The translations under genes were made by a program, and so were the position numbers. Below the pieces are notes generated by a model. That model worked only from the letters and a program-made list of their open reading frames with translations, had not been told where the DNA came from and did no database searches. 64,000 nucleotides of DNA from Sphyrna mokarran (lineage: Eukaryota), in assembly GCA_024679065.1 (NCBI GenBank), contig JAGIQG010000002.1, forward strand, positions 33,046,001 through 33,110,000, given 5' to 3'. Within the stretch, counting starts at the first letter, position 1, and each line of letters begins with the position of its first letter. Shown here one piece after another: positions 25,461-59,342 of the stretch.

Positions 25461-26894
25461 TCTAGTGTCAATTGCATAATTATGTCTCTTAAGTTTACTC
25501 ATCCATTTAAAAGTCCCTTCTTTGCACACCAGTTATACTTTTAAAATTAACCAATTGATTATAAAGGTTGTATTTTCTGTCACTGCCTTAACCAACGACA
25601 AAACGCTCACACTTCAATAACATGGGACTGATATTTCAAATGTGTGGGCTAAGTTCCTTTCGACAAAATTGAAGCTTCTGAGCAAAATGACATCTCACAT
25701 TTACCAACTTCAATGGTCACTACTAAACCCTCTTGGGGTGCCACCACTCCTCTCCTAACACCTTAATTTTCTAATCCATCTTTATGCGCATTTTTCATTT
25801 AATTATGTTTAGCACTCTCTAATATTTCCTAATCTTTGAGCAGATGCACTGCCCATGTAATTACAGATATCTATGAAAGCAGCACCAGTTTTTCTACAGG
25901 GCCATATAAATTTACAGCTCACCAAGAAGCCATCTGATGCAATTTGTTAACTTTTTTCATGAGCTATCCAATGCACTAATCTCTTCCAGATAAGAGGTTT
26001 TACTTTATAGATGTAGCCTCTGAAATTCCATTACACTGTACTTTCCCCATCTCTATCAAACAAAAATCAAATATTTATTTACTTTCCTTTTAAAAATATT
26101 ATGGATTCTGCTTCTGGTATGATATTCCATGCCCTGACCAATTTTTAAAAATCCATTAATCTCTCCCTTTGCTCTTCTAGCAATAATTTGAAATTTATAA
26201 TCTGAAATTTATACCCATTACTAACTCACTGACTATTGGAAATAGATTTTCTAAATTTAGTTTATCCAAGGACCATTTTGAATATGCTGATTAAATCTTT
26301 TATTCTTTTCACATGGACAGCCAATTTCTCTTTTCCTTTCCTTACAAAAGCCTCTCACTCTTGACCATTCTCTTCAGGGGTAAGATGGTGGTGTACTGGC
26401 AATGTCACTGGAATAGTTATATACAGACTCAGGCTGATGCTCTAGGGGCGAGTTCCAAATGCTGCCATGGTGGCTGAAAGTGGAATATAAATTCAATTAA
26501 TGATATCTGGATTTGAAAGCTACCTCGTAGTCAGTAGTAGTGACCATAAAACTGTCATAGATTGCCATAAAAACCCACATTTACCATCAATCTGCTATCC
26601 TTATCTGGTTTGACTCCAGACCCACAGCAACGTGGTTGACTCTGAGGTTACAATTTAGCAGCTCTGTTGATTGTAGGCATATTCCTGTAATGGCTACTAA
26701 ATGTCAAATGGCCAAAAATGGGATTTGTGCCAGCAAAATCACAGTCTGAAATCTTCCCTGCCCCTTGGTGGTGACAGAAATTTACATAAATTTTGATAAG
26801 CTTACCAGCCTTGACACTAATGTCACACTATGCCAGTGTGAGCATTTTGTCACTATTTTCTGCCACTGCCTTAACCAAACTTTATGATCAGTTG

Positions 26895-27085
26895 AAGAAA
26901 AAATACTGCAGATGCTAGATCTGAAACAAAAGCAGAAAATGCTGCAAAATCTCAATAGGGCTGATAACATCTGTGGACAGAGAATACAGCCAATATTTAT
27001 CCTGACTCAAAACACTGGCTCTATTCTCTGTCCACAGATGCTGTCAGCCCTGTTGAGATTTTCCATTATTTTCTGTTTTTGTTTA
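26895..27085. mobile_element. Penelope-type palindromic element, family 2
   Basis: Inverted arms aaatctcaatagggctgataacatctgtggacagagaata / tattctctgtccacagatgctgtcagccctgttgagattt. Related copies at 35025, 38210, 57358 and 60785. Confidence 0.75.
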
Positions 27086-27356
27086 TAATCAGTTGATTAA
27101 TTAAGATAAATAAGTATTGCAACTTTTAAGTGAGCTGAATAAAATTACATTAAATATAATTCTGCAAGTGACAATAAATATATTACTCTTTGGCACCACC
27201 AGTTCTCAAAAACTAAAACCAGTCATGATGACCACACCAGGTTGCATAGTAATATATGGCCCCAGGTAATGCAGAATCCTGGCAATGCAAACCTGCATTC
27301 TAGGGAATACCCTTATGTGGGGCAGGCAATGTTTGTGGAGTTAGGGAGTGGTGCCA

Positions 27357-42420: not shown

Positions 42421-44049
42421 CGAGATTGGGCTGTCTATTTTTGTATTTTTGCTATTTTCTCCCTCTCTGTGGGTGTAATTTGGCCTCCTCCGAGCCCACC
42501 CGCTTTCTCATGATTGGTTCCTTGTGACCGATGTGAGAGTGGGGTCCTGGGTTGTGGCATCTGCCAATGTCAGTAGTTGGGACAGAGATGGGGCAGGATT
42601 GGGGGAGGGGGTGGGAACGTTGGTGGTGGTGGCTCCCCACTGAGGAGGGATCCCAGGCTACTGTTACAAATGATAGATTTTGGCTAGAAGGCCCTTGACT
42701 CTGACCTTGGAAGATACAATGGTCCTGGGCGATCCCTCCAAGTCCGCAGAAATTATTAAATCATTTCTCATGGAATACATGTGTCGCACCCATGAAAATT
42801 TCTTAACCCTACTAGTAGGTAATACTTTTTTTCCCCCACTTGGCCATTGAATGTATTTGCGTGTAGGCTACTTTTTGGTAGATAATAAGTTGCTCCCAGC
42901 TGTGTACTCATGCTCCTCCAAAACAACTGTAATCCCTGACATTGGGCTTAGTAGTGGAGAAGAGGGTGGGCACTCTTATGCCTTGGCAATTTAATACTTG
43001 TCTGCTCTCTGATGATGAATTTGTTTATATTTCAATTAACCCAGATTGTTGAATTCTTAATTTAACAATGCTCTGGGAATCTTAGCAGCTGCCTTATGCG
43101 ATACACTGAAGGCTTATTTAAGGGGCCAGATCACATCTTATTCAGCACGAGGCGAAGCAGAGGAAGGAAGGTATTGGAATTGCTGGGGCATATCACCCAA
43201 GTTGATGCCGCATACATTGCTGGCCTGTCCCCAGAGGTACATAAAGGAACATTTACCACTACTGATGGGGTGAAACCCTATCCTCACTTAAGTGGAAAAG
43301 ATGCTGTTCAAATATAAATAATGATGTAAAGATGCCGGTGTTGGACTGGGGTAAACACAGTAAAAAGTCTGACAACACCAGATCCTTAGTTGCTTCGAAC
43401 AGATAAGGGCTACAGGTGCAGCAGGAAATGGGGAACGCTAACTGAATGTTGGCCCTTATTTCAAGGGGATTGGAGTATGAGGGTAGAGAACTCTTGCGTC
43501 AGCATCACAAAAACTGATTTCCTGATTGTTACGACATTAATTGTGGGAGCTTTGTATGGATGTTATAACATTTCCTGCATTGTAACAGTGAATACATTTC
43601 TAAAGCGCTTTACGAAAACCAGTGGATATGAAAGGTGCAATATAAATGCAAGTCTTTTTTGGGATCTTGCTCTATGAAAAATTACTATTGTTTTTACCGA
43701 GCATTAATTACTATATTTCAAAATTAACTGTGAAATGCTTTGAAACATTACCGAAGGATGATGTTGAGCACACTTCTCTATCTAATCAACCGGAGACGTT
43801 CTAGCATATTATTCTGACACGAATACAATGAATATTCTGGAGAGGGTGCAGAACAAATTTGCAGCAGTTTCAGGGATGAGGGACTTCAGATTGGAGAAGC
43901 TGGATTTGTTCTCCTTAGAAAGTTGAAAGGAGATTTGACAGAAATGTTTATAATCAGGAATGGTCTAAACACAGGGAAATTATTCCCAATGGCTGAAGAG
44001 CTGAGAAGCAGAGAACATTGATTTAAGGCAATTTACAAAAGAATGGCCT

Positions 44050-45065
44050 GTATTGCCAAAAAAGACCCCAAATCAAAATGGGAACACTTATCAGCCAGAA
44101 GCCTTCTTGGCTGCCAGGGAACCGTACGTTATCAAAAATCACCTGTATACCAATTGTGTAGAAGGCTTCTGGCTGATAAGTGTTCCCATTTAGATTTGGT
44201 CTTTTTTGGCAACGCAAGCTAATTGGACTAAGGCTATGGCTCTGTGTTCAAGATGCCAAAGCTAAGGAAATTAATGTGATTTTCCACATGAGCAAACAGG
44301 GCATTAGTTACAGTCTTACTGCAGCTGACAAAAGAAAAACAAACAGGTCTCCTGATGATCCCGGAAAGATCCTGAGGCATAGAAGTTGAAAGCAGTTACC
44401 CTTGCAGCCATTGGCAACGCATTGAGTTTGATCATGGCTCAAGTTGCTGCTGGACCACACAACGTATGTCTGTCATCACCTCATGGCTTCATGTCAGTCA
44501 TTTTTGACACTGGTTTTCTGTCATATTGATGTCCTAGACCTGTACACCTCTCCCACTGGTAAATTACCCTGCCTCTCCTCCTCTTTTCTGGTGCATGGGC
44601 AAAAGCCCCTCCCTCCTGACCTGCCTTCCAGCTGCTCAGAGGCTGGCTTTTTTGGCTTCTGTGAGGGTGCCATGTTCATCTTTTATGTTCCTTTGCACAA
44701 AGTGCTATGCACCCTTTCTCCAACACAAAGGTGTTCCTGCCATTTGTATCCACAAGTCAGGAGCCAAAATAACTGCCCTGCGAGATGAGGAGTGCCTCCC
44801 CGCTACCTCCTATTTGTCAGGTTAAATGAAAGAAGTTGGAATTTATTTAGTTGGACAGTGAATAAAATTTTAAAAGCAAGTTGCACAGGGGACTCTACCT
44901 CTCCAAAGGGGCACCTCAGTTATTCAAAGAAATGCTCAAAGATCAGACCTACTTTTACCAGGTCTACTTTCCACACTCAGGCTTCAACACTCCTAGCCCA
45001 TCAAAAGCTGAATGGAGCGAAAGCAGCTGCTGACAAGGCAGCTGCCCCATAAAATATCCTGGCAA
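44050..45065 (-). mobile_element. Degenerate PIF/Harbinger transposon (HARBI1-like transposase remnant)
   Basis: Minus-strand frames give NMTENQCQK*L, NALPMAARVTAFNFYASGSF, SGDL, TVTNALF and IQVIFDNVRFPGS. These match the Harbinger motifs ALNFYASGSFQ and ARFPGS.HD. Confidence 0.75.
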
Positions 45066-46772: not shown

Positions 46773-47090
46773 AATGCAGTGGCATAGTGGTTAGCACTGC
46801 TGCCACACAGTGCCAGGTACCCACATTCAATTCTGGCCCTGTGTGACTATTTGTGTGGAGTTTGCACATTCTCTCTATGGCTGCGTGGACTTCCTCCAAG
46901 TGCTACGGTTACCTCCCACTGAGTAAAGATGTACAGATTAGGTGGACTGACTGTGCTAAATTTGCCTTACTATCAGGAGGATTAGTGGGGTAAATACAGG
47001 GTTGGGTCAAGGGTGGGATTATTATCGGTGCAGGTTCAATGGGCCAATTGGCCTTCATTTTGTATAGTATGGATTGTATGATTTTATGAA
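46773..47090 (+). mobile_element. V-SINE, CR1-type tail (B)
   Basis: Full head, V-domain and atgggccaattggccttc...tgtatagtatggattgtatga tail. Confidence 0.85.
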
Positions 47091-47451
47091 TTCTAATTGC
47101 AAGCTTTAGGAATTGTGGAAAGGCAAAATAACCGCATGGAAGTGACCAATTTGAACACATCTAGTACTAAGCTATAACGTGAAATTTAAAACACAGCATA
47201 CAAGGATACTGAAAATTAGTAGTATTGACACGAGACATAAATAATGATCTGTTCAGGCAAGATTAAAAAAAAGGAGCAACTACAGAATATTTTCATTCTG
47301 ATTTTTTTTCCTCTTAGCCCAAATTTACAGATTCCAATGAGTTTCCTTGGTCAGTAATACGGGAAGTAGCTTATTCAGCTGAAAAGTGAAGATGATGGGT
47401 CATTCCAAAGACAGTCACAATATTCTCTGACTGAGGTCAGTGAGAACTCAG

Positions 47452-47701
47452 TAAGAATTTAGCAACGCCAATTTTTAATTCAACTGATTTATTTGATAGT
47501 AAAATTGCGAGCTTTCAACACTCTTGTGTCTTCCTCAGGCAATGCAGAACACTGCATTTGCCTGAGGAAGACACAAGAGTGTTGAAAGCTCGCAATTTTA
47601 CTATCAAATAAATCAGTTGAATTAAAAATTGGCGTTGCTAAATTCTTAGAGTTCTTACCACCCCAATCCAACGCCGGCATCTTTACATCATGACTACTAT
47701 C
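47452..47701. mobile_element. Young Penelope-like-element-derived palindromic insertion
   Basis: Inverted repeat 47452-47648 (arms ~96 bp, one bulge, loop AACA), followed by the terminus ...ccccaatccaacgccggcatctttacatcatg, which also occurs inverted at ~43320-43380. Direct repeat GAGGTCAGTGA(gaa)CTCAGTA on both flanks. Family assignment is from recalled consensus. Confidence 0.75.
47558..47595 (+). ncRNA. Minimal type I hammerhead ribozyme motif (mirror copy on the minus strand at 47505-47542)
   Basis: TTGC-CTGAGGA-A-GACAC-AAGA-GTGTT-GAAA-GC-TC-GCAA: CUGANGA and GAAA cores, 5-bp stem II, palindromic AGCT stem III, UC cleavage site, 4-bp stem I. Confidence 0.7.
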
Positions 47702-48269
47702 GAGGTCAGTGACTCAGTATTTCAGAAGTAGGTCTTAAACTAATGGTTATACCAATTGGACCAAAACAGCTGACACAACCAAAATCTCACTACAAGGTAG
47801 ATAAAAAATAATAAGGTCACAGAAAAACCAAATCAGTTTTGCTCAGTCACTTCAAACAATATTGGCAATATCTCAAAAGGTGCCCTTAACACAAAAATCA
47901 GTTTAATGGGAAAATATGTTCTCTTTGGTTGAAGCAAGTCCCTGGCCTTGTGTGTTTTTTGGATTTAAAAAGGAGGATCAAATCCAAAGAATGACTTCTA
48001 GTGCAAGTGCGTGTGTCAAGCAACATGGTTATCTTTTCAAACATGTCCCATTTCAAGATATATATTTCCTGAGTATCGGTGATGTTGGTAGATTTTGTGC
48101 ACTTTTAATTCCCTAAAATCAAATCTGCATGCATAATTGCAATACAAAGCTGCTTCAAAGATCAAAACGGTGACCTTGTTTGTTAGTAATTAATATGGGA
48201 ACAGAAAAAAAAAAACAGTATGTTCCTACTGAAGAACAGTGATGGGGGGGTTGGAAAGAAAAAAGAAGG

Positions 48270-51279: not shown

Positions 51280-51587
51280 CCATGGTGGCACAGCCTCACA
51301 GCATTAGGGACCCTGGTTCAATTTTGGCCTTAGCTGACAGTCAGTCTAGAGTTTGCATGTTCTCCCCGTGTCTGCATGGGTTTCTTCCCAGTGGACCAGT
51401 TTCCTCCCATAGTCCAAAGACGAGAGAGTCAGGCGGATTGGCCATGCTAAATTGTTCCTTAGTGTTAAGAAGATCAGGATAAATACATGGGGTTACAAGA
51501 ATAGAGCATGGGTAGGATTGTTGGTGGTACACACTCGATGGGCCAAATGACCTCTTTCTGCACTGTAAGGATGCAATGATTCTATGA
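51280..51587 (+). mobile_element. V-SINE, CR1-type tail (B)
   Basis: V-domain plus gatgggccaaatgacctctttctgcactgtaaggatgcaatgattctatga. Confidence 0.85.
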
Positions 51588-52182
51588 AGTCACATTGAAC
51601 TGCCTTCACTTATATGGATGGGGAGTGCATTGTCACTTGCATAGAGGCAGGAAAATATTTTCACGGTAGAATTAATAGGGTAACTGTTCCATTCCTTATT
51701 CTTGTCTCAGTATTACTTAAAGTGGGTGTTTTTGTTTAAAACCTTCAACCCTTAATTGTGTCAATAAGGACATACAAATAGGAGGATAATTTGAATATAC
51801 CAAAGTCACCAAGATTACCTTTAATCACTGTAGTATTGCTCACCTTCAGTCTTGCCATTCTCATTTGCTAACAGAAACTCTAACCATCATTATTTAGATA
51901 CCTTGAGTCAACTAACATCTTCAAACCTCCAGCTCTCTTCCTCCTGCCCTAATGTAACTAAGTTCTATAACTGAGGTGACACAGGTCACCCACTGAAAGT
52001 GGCAACACAGGTGGAGAAGGCAGTCAAGGCGGCTACAGGTACTTTCATCCTACAGATATTTCAGTCCGCCTTGTCTAACAAGGGGTATACATGCGATGGG
52101 TCGTGAGAGAGCTGCTCTTGGATTTTGAGAGTATCCTAGTGCTTCAGGTCGTTAGTGTACGCTTGATCTGGACCATTTGATG

Positions 52183-56156: not shown

Positions 56157-57412
56157 CTAAAAAAACATATGAAATAACATCCATGTAAATATTCAATTTT
56201 AAACAATTTCTAAAGATGGAGTTGGTTAATATTACGTTCTCAAAATAACTAAAATCGATTTAAAAGGCAAGCAAATGCAATCATTATTATTTCCCCCATG
56301 GTGACATAAATTTAGACATATTATACATACATTTGCTCAAATACTTGCATAGAAGCTATCTGCAAATATAGATAGTGCTCAATTTTGCTTCTCCATTTCC
56401 CAGTTAAAAGAAACAAGTGTTATTATATTTTAGCTTCTAGATATATTGCAAAAACAAAGATTATAGCTTGCATGTCTGAGTCCAAAGGTCGAAATCCAAG
56501 ATAGTTGGACGGAAGGTGTTTTTTTCTTTTGCAACAGGAATCAATTTCAGAATATTGCAGGATATATATTTCTGCATTTAAAAGGGGCAATGCAGTTTCA
56601 GTTGATTGATTAACTCAGTATAGCATCTGAGTTCAATCCAGGAGTTGCACTGGTTGTATTTTTGCCTTGTACTCACTTCAGTTCAACACACATGATTTAT
56701 TGACCCAAGTTGTGCTTTCGTGATAGCATTTATTGTGGTCCCACTCTAAGCCAAGTAGAACTCTCTTTATATTTTACAAATCAGAAAATTGAGATGTGAT
56801 GCATTCATGGAATCAGGAATATACAGAAATTGCACTGACCGCAAATCTCATACTAAAACACAAAAACTTCAGTTTAATACAGGGCATGTTCTATGGCACT
56901 GCTCACCAGAAAAGGAAAGAAATATCTTCCATCTTTTTAGACTTTACTAAAATGAACAACAGAGATGGCTGCATCGAATTTATCAGCTCGAGTACACAAT
57001 GCAACCTCATCAATCTTTTCCATTGTAAAATGACTAACTGCTTTGGATATGCATTTAACTTTGTTCAATTTTCAGCATTAATTTTCTGCTGTGCTTTGGA
57101 TCCCTCAGTCTTGCCCAACAGTCCGCGGACATCCAAGATAAATGCTGAGCCTGAGAGAATTCATGCATGTTTTATTTACAGATGCAAATGGTAATAGACC
57201 TGATGCAACTGAACAACATATTTAAGCAAACACAAGGCTACATTCAACTACATGCAGGCAGGGATACTCAAGCATAGAGATGAGCATGAAGTTCAGCAGG
57301 TAGAGTTAAACAATGTTAGTTCAATTCCAAAAGAAGTGAGTAAAATTGGTTTTCTGAATTAAAAACAAAAATTGCTGGAAATACTCAGTAGGTTAAGCAG
57401 CATCTGTGGAGA

Positions 57413-57730
57413 GAATCATAGAATCCCTACAGTGCAGAAGGACGACATTTGGCCCTTCGAGTCTGTACTGACCAAAGTCCCACCAAGGCCCCATCCCCAC
57501 AATCCCATGTATTTACCCTGCTAATCCCCCTAACGCTAGGTAGAACATGGCCAATCCACCTAACCTGCATATCTTTGGACTGTGTGAGGAAACCGAAGCA
57601 CCCACAGGAAAAACACAGAGACACTAGAAGAATGTGCAAAAACTCCACAGAGACAGTGACTCAAGGCTGGAATTGAACGTGGGACGCTGGTGCTGAGAGA
57701 CAGCAATGCTAACCACTGTGCCACCATGTC
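57413..57730 (-). mobile_element. V-SINE (tail B) inserted into a family-2 palindromic element (57358-57412 and 57735-57886)
   Basis: Left arm gctggaaatactcagtaggttaagcagcatctgtggagaga is interrupted; the right arm ctctctctccacaatctgcctgac follows the SINE. Confidence 0.85.
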
Positions 57731-59059: not shown

Positions 59060-59342
59060 GGAACAGTGGTTAGCACTGCTGCCTTAGTGCTATGGACCTG
59101 GGTTTGATTCTCAGCTTGTGCTGCCGTCTGTGCAGAGTCTGCAAATTCTTTACGTATCTGCATGGGTTTCCTCTGTTTTCCTCCCACCATCCGTAAGATG
59201 TGCAGGTTAGGTGCATTGGCCATGCTAACCTCTTCCCTTGGTGTACTAGAACAGGTGCCAGAGTGTGGCAAATGGGGGATTTTCATAGTAACTTCACTGC
59301 AGTGTTATTGTAAACATTTGTGACAATAATAAATAACTTTAA
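59060..59342 (+). mobile_element. V-SINE, tail type A
   Basis: Head, V-domain and tail tttgtgacaataataaataacttt. Confidence 0.85.

What the first reader, a model, noticed from the sequence alone, without database searches (positions are those of the whole stretch)
47452..47701. Near-perfect 197-bp palindrome in ZEB1 intron 6 carries an intact hammerhead ribozyme core on both strands
Seen: the arms pair over ~96 bp with one bulged T and a 4-nt loop, and the insert is flanked by a ~18-21 bp direct repeat. Each arm contains TTGC-CTGAGGA-A-GACAC(AAGA)GTGTT-GAAA-GC-TC-GCAA (+ 47558-47595; - 47505-47542). Established: Penelope-like retroelements carry minimal type I hammerheads with a palindromic stem III that cleave as dimers. 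Inference: this is a young insertion, and the minus copy is transcribed in ZEB1 pre-mRNA. There it is probably locked in a long dsRNA hairpin, but it could fold differently during transcription. The hairpin is also a plausible ADAR/Dicer substrate and a cruciform or fragile site.
Basis: partly seen in the sequence, partly recalled or inferred. Interest (0 to 1): 0.75.

Follow-up and report, generated by a model that had tools for sequence, protein, structure and literature searches.

The report
Head-to-head Penelope retroelement stub in ZEB1
This is a 260-base hairpin-shaped insert in a ZEB1 intron, made of two head-to-head copies of the end of a very abundant repeat that is likely a Penelope-type jumping gene; its small ribozyme motif is predicted to be locked inactive inside the hairpin, so it is likely an ordinary leftover.

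Summary
The palindrome is real: 91/91 complementary bases, 103 bp when fully extended, against 11-13 bp in simulated windows. It lies in intron 6 (human numbering) of a minus-strand ZEB1. One minimal type I hammerhead sits on each strand. The '18-21 bp direct repeat' is more simply a 10-11 bp target duplication followed by the element's own inverted end. Public-run contigs show the arm belongs to a very large repeat family (12,396 contigs laid in one run). Variation avoids the catalytic core, and two preferred 3' ends lie about 33-36 nt apart. The layout (target duplication, inverted copy without tail, short palindromic junction, direct copy with tail, target duplication) is the published insertion geometry of Penelope-like elements. 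An older palindrome of the same layout lies 20 kb away. On either strand the antisense arm is transcribed first, and folding models bury the core as it emerges (67 kcal/mol gap). Cleavage of ZEB1 pre-mRNA is therefore unlikely; ADAR editing is plausible but untested. No RT/endonuclease ORF was found, so membership rests on non-coding hallmarks. This scan reported the same kind of stub in three findings on other genomes. Ordinary; interest 0.13.

The parts
47433..47442 (+). Left target-site duplication (10 bp; 11 bp if the ambiguous A47443 is counted)
   Evidence: Exact 11-nt match 47433-43 with 47702-12
47443..47547 (-). Inverted, tail-less copy of the element end; read on the minus strand it is the pre-mRNA-sense copy; one T short of the family form near the centre
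   Evidence: Alignment of arms; family carries the CT and the TTT (tables 4, 7)
47505..47542 (-). Minimal type I hammerhead motif, pre-mRNA sense; stem I 5 bp, stem II 5 bp, AGCU palindrome, predicted cut after 47509
   Evidence: Descriptor hit and anatomy
47543..47557 (.). Inversion junction: 5-bp mini-stem, 4-nt loop AACA (47548-51), bulged T47557
   Evidence: Sequence; fold
47552..47655 (+). Direct copy of the element end; lacks 2 nt (CT) after 47648 that the family and the left arm carry
   Evidence: CT put in behind 47648 in 24 X1 and 8 X2 contigs (table 4)
47558..47595 (+). Minimal type I hammerhead motif, antisense to ZEB1; stem I 4 bp; unpaired A between positions 9 and 10.1; G10.1-U11.1; predicted cut after C47591
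   Evidence: family variation table 3
47656..47691 (+). One-sided tail (33-36 nt) between the family's two preferred 3' ends
   Evidence: Absent from the left arm; family depth falls from 1.93 M to 0.19 M across 47689-47712, 3 of 5 rows of table 5c leave at 47690-91; the older copy at 43321 ends at the same base
47692..47701 (+). 10 nt beyond the commonest family end; with 47690-91 it reads ATG-ACT-ACT-ATC and may be the first codons of the element ORF, or filler; the frame stops after 13 codons in the flank
   Evidence: Sequence; interpretation is inference
47702..47711 (+). Right target-site duplication
   Evidence: junction spanned by X1 contig record 8 (47676-48240, 0 differences)
47712..47719 (+). 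8 nt of host flank identical to 47446-53 inside the element's inverted end (possible annealing microhomology)
   Evidence: a match this long within +-5 nt register at 106 of 42,415 sampled window sites; noticed after the fact

Best explanation
The locus is a 259-bp insertion in ZEB1 intron 6 made of two head-to-head copies of the end of a highly repeated family, likely a severely 5'-truncated Penelope-like retroelement (PLE) insertion whose hammerhead is a passenger predicted to be locked in a long RNA hairpin. Inferred mechanism: the element's GIY-YIG endonuclease nicked the two target strands about 10 bp apart. Its reverse transcriptase extended both 3' ends on the element RNA, one from the outer start site (giving the copy with the tail) and one from the inner start site 33-36 nt upstream (giving the tail-less inverted copy). 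Both cDNAs stopped about 10 nt upstream of the hammerhead core and were joined at a short inverted repeat; fill-in made the target duplication. I put this two-ended priming at about 55% and fold-back self-priming of one cDNA at about 40%; the sequence fits both. In ZEB1 pre-mRNA the antisense arm is made first and zips up the sense arm, so no cleavage is predicted. The likely fate of the RNA is A-to-I editing and decay with the intron. Shown: geometry, motif, family size, two family ends, predicted folding. Inferred: PLE identity (no ORF seen), the integration steps, age, inactivity in vivo, editing.
For: Geometry matches the published PLE unit. PMC3846280 (passages) describes an inverted pLTR shorter than the direct one, a 31-bp one-sided tail, 8-10 bp TSDs and palindromes at head-to-head junctions. 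PMC8557442 (passages) describes an inverted 5'-truncated copy and a 30-40 bp tail at one end. PMC11167929 (main text) shows both strands nicked and extended, with two RT start sites that bound the tail, one in an AC-rich stretch; here the tail-less arm ends at the AC-rich run 47657-70. The motif meets the min-HHR anatomy of PMC4209133: helix I 4-5 bp, extra nucleotide between 9 and 10.1, palindromic 15.2-16.2. Family size: 12,396 contigs of X1, 806 of X2 and 195 of X3 were laid; summed depth is 0.77-4.0 million over 47545-47688 against 13.6 on the flank (not a copy number, so tens of thousands of copies or more is my inference). Of the 9 variant rows (>=5%) within the element, 3 are in loop II, 1 turns G-U into G-C at 10.1-11.1, 1 is C to U at the H17 site, 3 are in or beside stem I 3', 1 is downstream, and none is in CUGANGA, GAAA or the AGCU palindrome (table 3). 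Both arms share the minority letter A47615 (78% of X1 depth has G), so they derive from one template or one source locus. The hammerhead fold costs 67 kcal/mol in the full RNA and the core is paired in every prefix tested from 8 nt past its start. An older palindrome of a different family with a 9-bp flanking repeat and a 28-nt one-sided extension lies at 26887-27096.
Against: No RT or GIY-YIG ORF of this family was seen, so PLE membership and clade are untested at protein level. No Rfam hammerhead model matches. The 10.1-11.1 pair is G-U rather than the conserved G-C. Stem II is 5 bp, shorter than the 7-8 bp reported for Schistosoma min-HHRs. No contig spanning the centre or the left junction was examined, and table 5 lists no joints. 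No empty-site allele was seen: the organism B contig covers only 47751-47995. [quoted passage not shown] The folding model is equilibrium on prefixes, not kinetics, and ignores proteins and editing.
Confidence: 0.85

Rival explanations
1. A non-autonomous palindromic element (MITE-like or retrozyme-like) that is copied as a ready-made hairpin unit.
For: Very high family depth; terminal inverted arms; 563 X1 contigs run over an end of the laid stretch, which starts inside the central stem, so similar centres may be common (table 1; weak).
Against: The arms are not terminal: 46 nt lie outside them on one side. The family also occurs as a tail-only truncated copy without inversion at 43321-43400. 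Retrozymes are head-to-tail tandems (bioRxiv 10.64898/2026.07.22.740005 passages).
Confidence: 0.06
2. A plain one-copy insertion that was later turned into a palindrome by host fold-back repair, unrelated to the element's enzymes.
For: Perfect arm identity; another palindrome without PLE hallmarks lies at 44053-44212, so other routes to palindromes exist in this genome.
Against: The inversion copies only element sequence and stops at the family's inner 3' end. An intact 10-11 bp target duplication brackets both arms, which places the inversion at the time of insertion.
Confidence: 0.04
3. A working intronic ribozyme or co-opted hairpin (miRNA or siRNA source) that regulates ZEB1 pre-mRNA.
For: Core nucleotides are intact; an isolated arm folds stems I and II (P 0.90-1.0); the minus copy is in pre-mRNA sense; sub-threshold Rfam miRNA-hairpin hits, which any long hairpin would give.
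Against: The core is sequestered on both strands. Single min-HHRs showed no cleavage and dimers only low cleavage (PMC4209133). The Anolis PLE hammerhead needed protein and no RNA-seq reads ended at its cut site (PMC11167929). The locus is one of a very large family, with no sign of locus-specific conservation.
Confidence: 0.03
4. An assembly or sequencing fold-back artefact.
For: Perfect palindromes made of a high-copy repeat are hard to assemble; the centre and left junction were not checked against reads.
Against: Unique flanks on both sides share a target duplication; the arms differ by two indels in opposite directions; the tail is one-sided; an X1 contig spans the right junction with no difference (record 8; X1 may be the assembly's own sample).
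Confidence: 0.02

Closest known systems
EN+ Penelope-like element insertion units with inverted pLTR and tail (Arkhipova et al. 2013, PMC3846280; Craig et al. 2021, PMC8557442)
   Same: Head-to-head inverted copy shorter than the direct copy, palindrome at the junction, one-sided tail of about 30-40 nt, TSD of about 10 bp, strong 5' truncation
   Different: Reduced to the pLTR end alone (259 bp) with no ORF, so the two copies abut and form one long hairpin
Minimal hammerheads (min-HHR) of metazoan PLEs (Cervera and De la Pena 2014, PMC4209133)
   Same: Type I order, CUGANGA and GAAA core, unpaired nucleotide between 9 and 10.1, helix I 4-5 bp, no helix III but a palindromic 15.2-16.2; that paper also notes paired motifs on opposite strands 100-700 bp apart
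   Different: G10.1-U11.1 instead of G-C; stem II 5 bp; the two motifs are only about 20 nt apart and mask each other
Poseidon PLE of Anolis (Frangieh et al. 2024, PMC11167929)
   Same: Two 3' ends bounding a tail, hammerhead about 90-130 nt upstream of them, AC-rich inner end
   Different: The target here is not AT-rich (TSD 60% G+C) and shows an 8-nt match to the element; in Anolis the ORF starts at stem II, which is not evident here
Non-LTR retrozymes (bioRxiv 10.64898/2026.07.22.740005)
   Same: PLE-related, hammerhead-bearing, non-coding, reported in one chondrichthyan genome
   Different: Retrozymes are head-to-tail tandem repeats able to form active dimers; this is a head-to-head pair
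Palindromic Harbinger repeats of Xenopus as ADAR targets (Porath et al. 2017, PMC5625713)
   Same: About 200-nt self-folding repeat that needs no neighbouring inverted copy; that paper also reports heavy editing of lizard Penelope
   Different: DNA transposon with a palindromic consensus; editing at this locus is untested

Membership tests
Penelope-like elements (EN+) | ORF with telomerase-like RT and GIY-YIG endonuclease | not testable with these tools
   This copy has no ORF (frame after the tail stops in 13 codons); no host genome held; collection scans found no true family member
Penelope-like elements (EN+) | Hammerhead motif in the pLTR | tested here: met
   Descriptor hits only these two sites; 0 in 100 simulated windows
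Penelope-like elements (EN+) | Inverted, shorter copy abutting the 5' end head-to-head, with a palindrome at the junction | tested here: met
Penelope-like elements (EN+) | Optional 30-40 bp tail at one end | tested here: met
   33-36 nt between the left-arm end and the family end at 47690-91; this copy runs 10 nt further
Penelope-like elements (EN+) | Dispersed, 5'-truncated copies sharing a 3' end, with variable TSD | tested here: met
   12,396 X1 contigs; second window copy ends at the same base; 10-11 bp TSD
Penelope-like elements (EN+) | Partial tandem copies forming direct pLTRs | tested here: inconclusive
   Not at this locus; rows table 5c that leave at 47690-91 and re-enter upstream may be tandems, but strands are not given
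Metazoan min-HHR (type I) | CUGANGA, GAAA, UH core; nucleotide between 9 and 10.1; palindromic 15.2-16.2; helix I 4-5 bp | tested here: met
   no variant >=5% in the core among family contigs (table 3)
Metazoan min-HHR (type I) | G10.1-C11.1 pair | tested here: not met
   G-U here; C at 47583 in 9% of X1, 32% of X2 and 32% of X3 depth
Metazoan min-HHR (type I) | Covariation in stem II across copies | tested here: inconclusive
   Indels and substitutions fall in loop II; loose-end consensuses before 47584 (X1, X2) read as a G-C, G-C, C-G or U-G stem, but agreement is only 0.59-0.61 (table 7); no alignment of full copies was possible
Metazoan min-HHR (type I) | Self-cleavage as a dimer | not testable with these tools
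   Needs an assay; a modelled tandem dimer fold (-12 to -13 kcal/mol) is about 9 kcal/mol above the MFE
Rfam hammerhead families | Covariance-model match | tested here: not met
   No hammerhead family at E<=10 or at gathering score
Non-LTR retrozymes | Head-to-tail tandem repeats | tested here: not met
   Head-to-head pair only
MITE / non-autonomous DNA transposon | Inverted repeats at both termini, directly inside the TSD | tested here: not met
   46 nt separate the right arm from the TSD

The most novel reading that the evidence does not exclude
The junctions record a homology-guided second end of Penelope integration: the top target strand paired with the element over 8+3 nt across a 3-nt bulge at the inner RT start site, so PLE targets are partly chosen by base pairing. 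The resulting head-to-head stubs switch off their own ribozymes and may supply tens of thousands of perfect intronic hairpins for ADAR or Dicer in this lineage, with this one shaping ZEB1 pre-mRNA.
Probability: 0.1. Interest if true: 0.5.

Novelty: new member of a known kind. Interest (0 to 1): 0.13.

Why it matters
As a single locus it matters little: it is one stub of a very large repeat family with a published geometry. Its value is as a clean specimen. The TSD, both 3' ends, the tail and the inversion junction are all readable in 280 bp, and PLE integration is still only partly worked out (PMC8557442, PMC11167929). Tallying such stubs genome-wide could separate two-ended priming from fold-back, test whether target-element pairing guides the second end, and measure how much intronic dsRNA this process creates. 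A ribozyme effect on ZEB1 would matter more but is improbable.

Tried and rejected
Own-genome search: no genome held. Rfam: only sub-threshold miRNA-hairpin matches on the palindrome, none above gathering score, no hammerhead. A loose CTGANGA..GAAA pattern is not above chance in the window (9 matches against 6.6 expected); only the structured descriptor is. Collection scans for family copies: metagenomes 0 and 1, the latter a chance 24-25 nt match inside a bacterial ORF (L001); prokaryote genomes 0; viral contigs 0. Expression: no RNA holder listed; X3 is only guessed to be RNA, covers the family but not the flank, and its A>G rows also stand in the DNA runs, so they say nothing on editing. 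The empty site could not be read: the organism B contig covers 47751-47995 only (7 differences in 245 nt). The 18-21 bp TSD reading was set aside because the family carries those letters, but an 18-bp duplication with a 3-nt element-derived insert is not excluded. Lunse et al. (dimer cleavage paper) is not held and is known here only through a review (PMC6765202 passages). Literature searches for shark palindromic Penelope stubs (4 papers; 4 papers; listings only, plus passages of PMC5625713) found no description, but Repbase, Dfam and subscription journals could not be searched. Sequence and place look-ups of earlier findings gave nothing.

Full report
Observation. It is far beyond chance: z = -29 with 0 of 200 shuffles as stable, and 11-13 bp as the longest perfect inverted repeat in 10 simulated windows. 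Gapped alignment extends the arms to 47443 and 47655: 103 paired bases, no mismatch, one T missing from the left arm and CT missing from the right. The host gene is ZEB1 on the minus strand, and the locus lies between the exons that match human exons 6 and 7 (numbering recalled). The host looks like a cartilaginous fish from its repeats; that is recall and was not tested.

The motif. Each strand carries one minimal type I hammerhead: stem I of 4 bp (+) or 5 bp (-), CUGAGGA, one unpaired A, a 5-bp stem II, GAAA, the AGCU palindrome and C17. My descriptor finds these two sites in the window and none in 100 simulated windows; the loose sequence pattern alone is not above chance. This matches the min-HHR of metazoan Penelope-like elements (PMC4209133; abstract, results, discussion and start of methods read), except that the pair next to the core is G-U, not G10.1-C11.1. 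Rfam gives no hammerhead match.

The family. I laid three public runs on the right arm plus right flank (47545-48240). 12,396 contigs of X1, 806 of X2 and 195 of X3 were laid. Summed depth is 0.77-4.0 million on the element and 13.6 on the flank; the tool warns this is not a copy number, so 'tens of thousands or more' is my inference. Nine variant rows at 5% or more lie in the element: three in loop II, one restoring G-C at 10.1-11.1, one C-to-U at H17, three at stem I 3', one downstream, none in the core. Family indels also fall in loop II. The family carries the CT that the right arm lacks, so the left-hand letters 47443-53 are most simply element sequence and the target duplication is 10-11 bp. 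Family depth falls tenfold across 47689-47712, three of five rows of table 5c leave at 47690-91, and an older copy at 43321-43400 (-) ends at the same base. Loose ends behind 47648 agree on about 12 letters and have low overall agreement (0.5), which suggests a second end near 47656-59, where the left arm stops. One X1 contig spans the right junction with no difference (record 8); X1 may be the assembly's own sample. Table 5 lists no joints, and the centre and left junction were not examined.

What it is. The layout is TSD, inverted tail-less copy, short palindromic junction, direct copy with tail, TSD. This is the published PLE insertion unit: PMC3846280 (passages), PMC8557442 (passages) and PMC8969392 (passages). 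PMC11167929 (abstract, main text and start of methods) shows that a PLE protein nicks and extends both target strands and starts reverse transcription at two sites that bound the tail. I therefore infer two-ended priming with joining at the central mini-palindrome (about 55%). The fold-back self-priming proposed in PMC3846280 fits almost as well (about 40%). Both arms share a minority letter (A47615; 78% of X1 depth has G), so they come from one template or source. A second, older palindrome of another family at 26887-27096 has a 9-bp flanking repeat, a 28-nt one-sided extension and 10 mismatches in 75 bp. The geometry thus recurs within 64 kb, and arms do diverge with time here, which supports a recent age for this locus in sequence terms. 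Absolute age and polymorphism are unknown. Against the reading: no RT or endonuclease ORF could be linked to the family.

What the RNA does. In a head-to-head pair the antisense arm precedes the sense arm on both strands. In prefix folding the core is 99% paired once 8 nt past its start, stem II has a probability of 1e-15 or less, and forcing the hammerhead fold in the 381-nt RNA costs 67 kcal/mol (equilibrium model, no kinetics or proteins). An isolated arm would form stems I and II but needs a partner; single min-HHRs did not cleave and dimers cleaved weakly (review PMC6765202 passages). Cleavage of ZEB1 pre-mRNA is therefore improbable. A 100-bp perfect duplex is a plausible ADAR target by analogy with palindromic frog repeats and lizard Penelope (PMC5625713 passages); nothing here tests it. 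Retrozymes are tandem repeats and are somewhat depleted in introns (bioRxiv 10.64898/2026.07.22.740005, passages and section 13); this locus is not of that form.

Loose end. The 8 nt of flank after the right TSD equal 47446-53 inside the inverted arm, 3 nt from the junction. Such a match occurs at 106 of 42,415 sampled sites, but it was noticed after the fact and is one case. It could reflect annealing of the target strand to the element, in which case the duplication could be counted as 18 bp with a 3-nt insert. Only the empty allele and a genome-wide tally can decide.

Novelty. The kind is known. Two library searches (listings) found no paper on shark palindromic Penelope stubs, but repeat databases and subscription journals were out of reach, and I opened no supplements; those of PMC4209133 list min-HHR families and may include this one. 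Three earlier findings of this scan on other genomes reach the same reading; they are unchecked AI notes and not support, though one pointed me to PMC3846280. Verdict: real feature, new member of a known kind, interest 0.13.

Noticed in passing
window 26887-27096: Older head-to-head palindrome of another repeat family: arms 26924-26998 and 27010-27084 (65 of 75 matching), 9-bp flanking direct repeat (26887-95, 27088-96), 28-nt extension on the left only. Same geometry as the finding; no hammerhead descriptor hit. Related single arms lie near 35038, 57353 and 60776.
   Followed up: partly
window 44053-44212: Palindrome with 55-nt arms (one mismatch, one 2-nt indel) and a 52-nt spacer; no clear target duplication or hammerhead; origin unexplained.
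   Followed up: partly
window 43321-43400 (-): Older, more diverged 5'-truncated copy related to the same family: tail present, no hammerhead, no inversion, no flanking repeat of 6 bp or more.
   Followed up: partly
window 47712-47719 and 47446-47453; 47691-47695 and 47428-47432: Short element-target matches lie just beyond both junctions (8 nt at the left junction, 5 nt at the right), each offset by a few bases; the target site itself is quasi-palindromic.
   Followed up: partly
window 47710-47716: The right flank holds a TGACTCA heptamer (AP-1 consensus, recalled); the insertion fell beside it. No evidence of function.
   Followed up: no
window 4325-4530, 8942-9058, 13193-13337, 46779-46927, 51292-51588, 57412-57724, 59114-59336: Many copies of SINE-like repeats in both orientations inside and beyond the ZEB1 introns; those inside introns add further possible dsRNA to the pre-mRNA.
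   Followed up: no
L001 3001-3025: Chance 24-25 nt match to the element tail inside a bacterial ORF of a metagenome contig; unrelated.
   Followed up: yes
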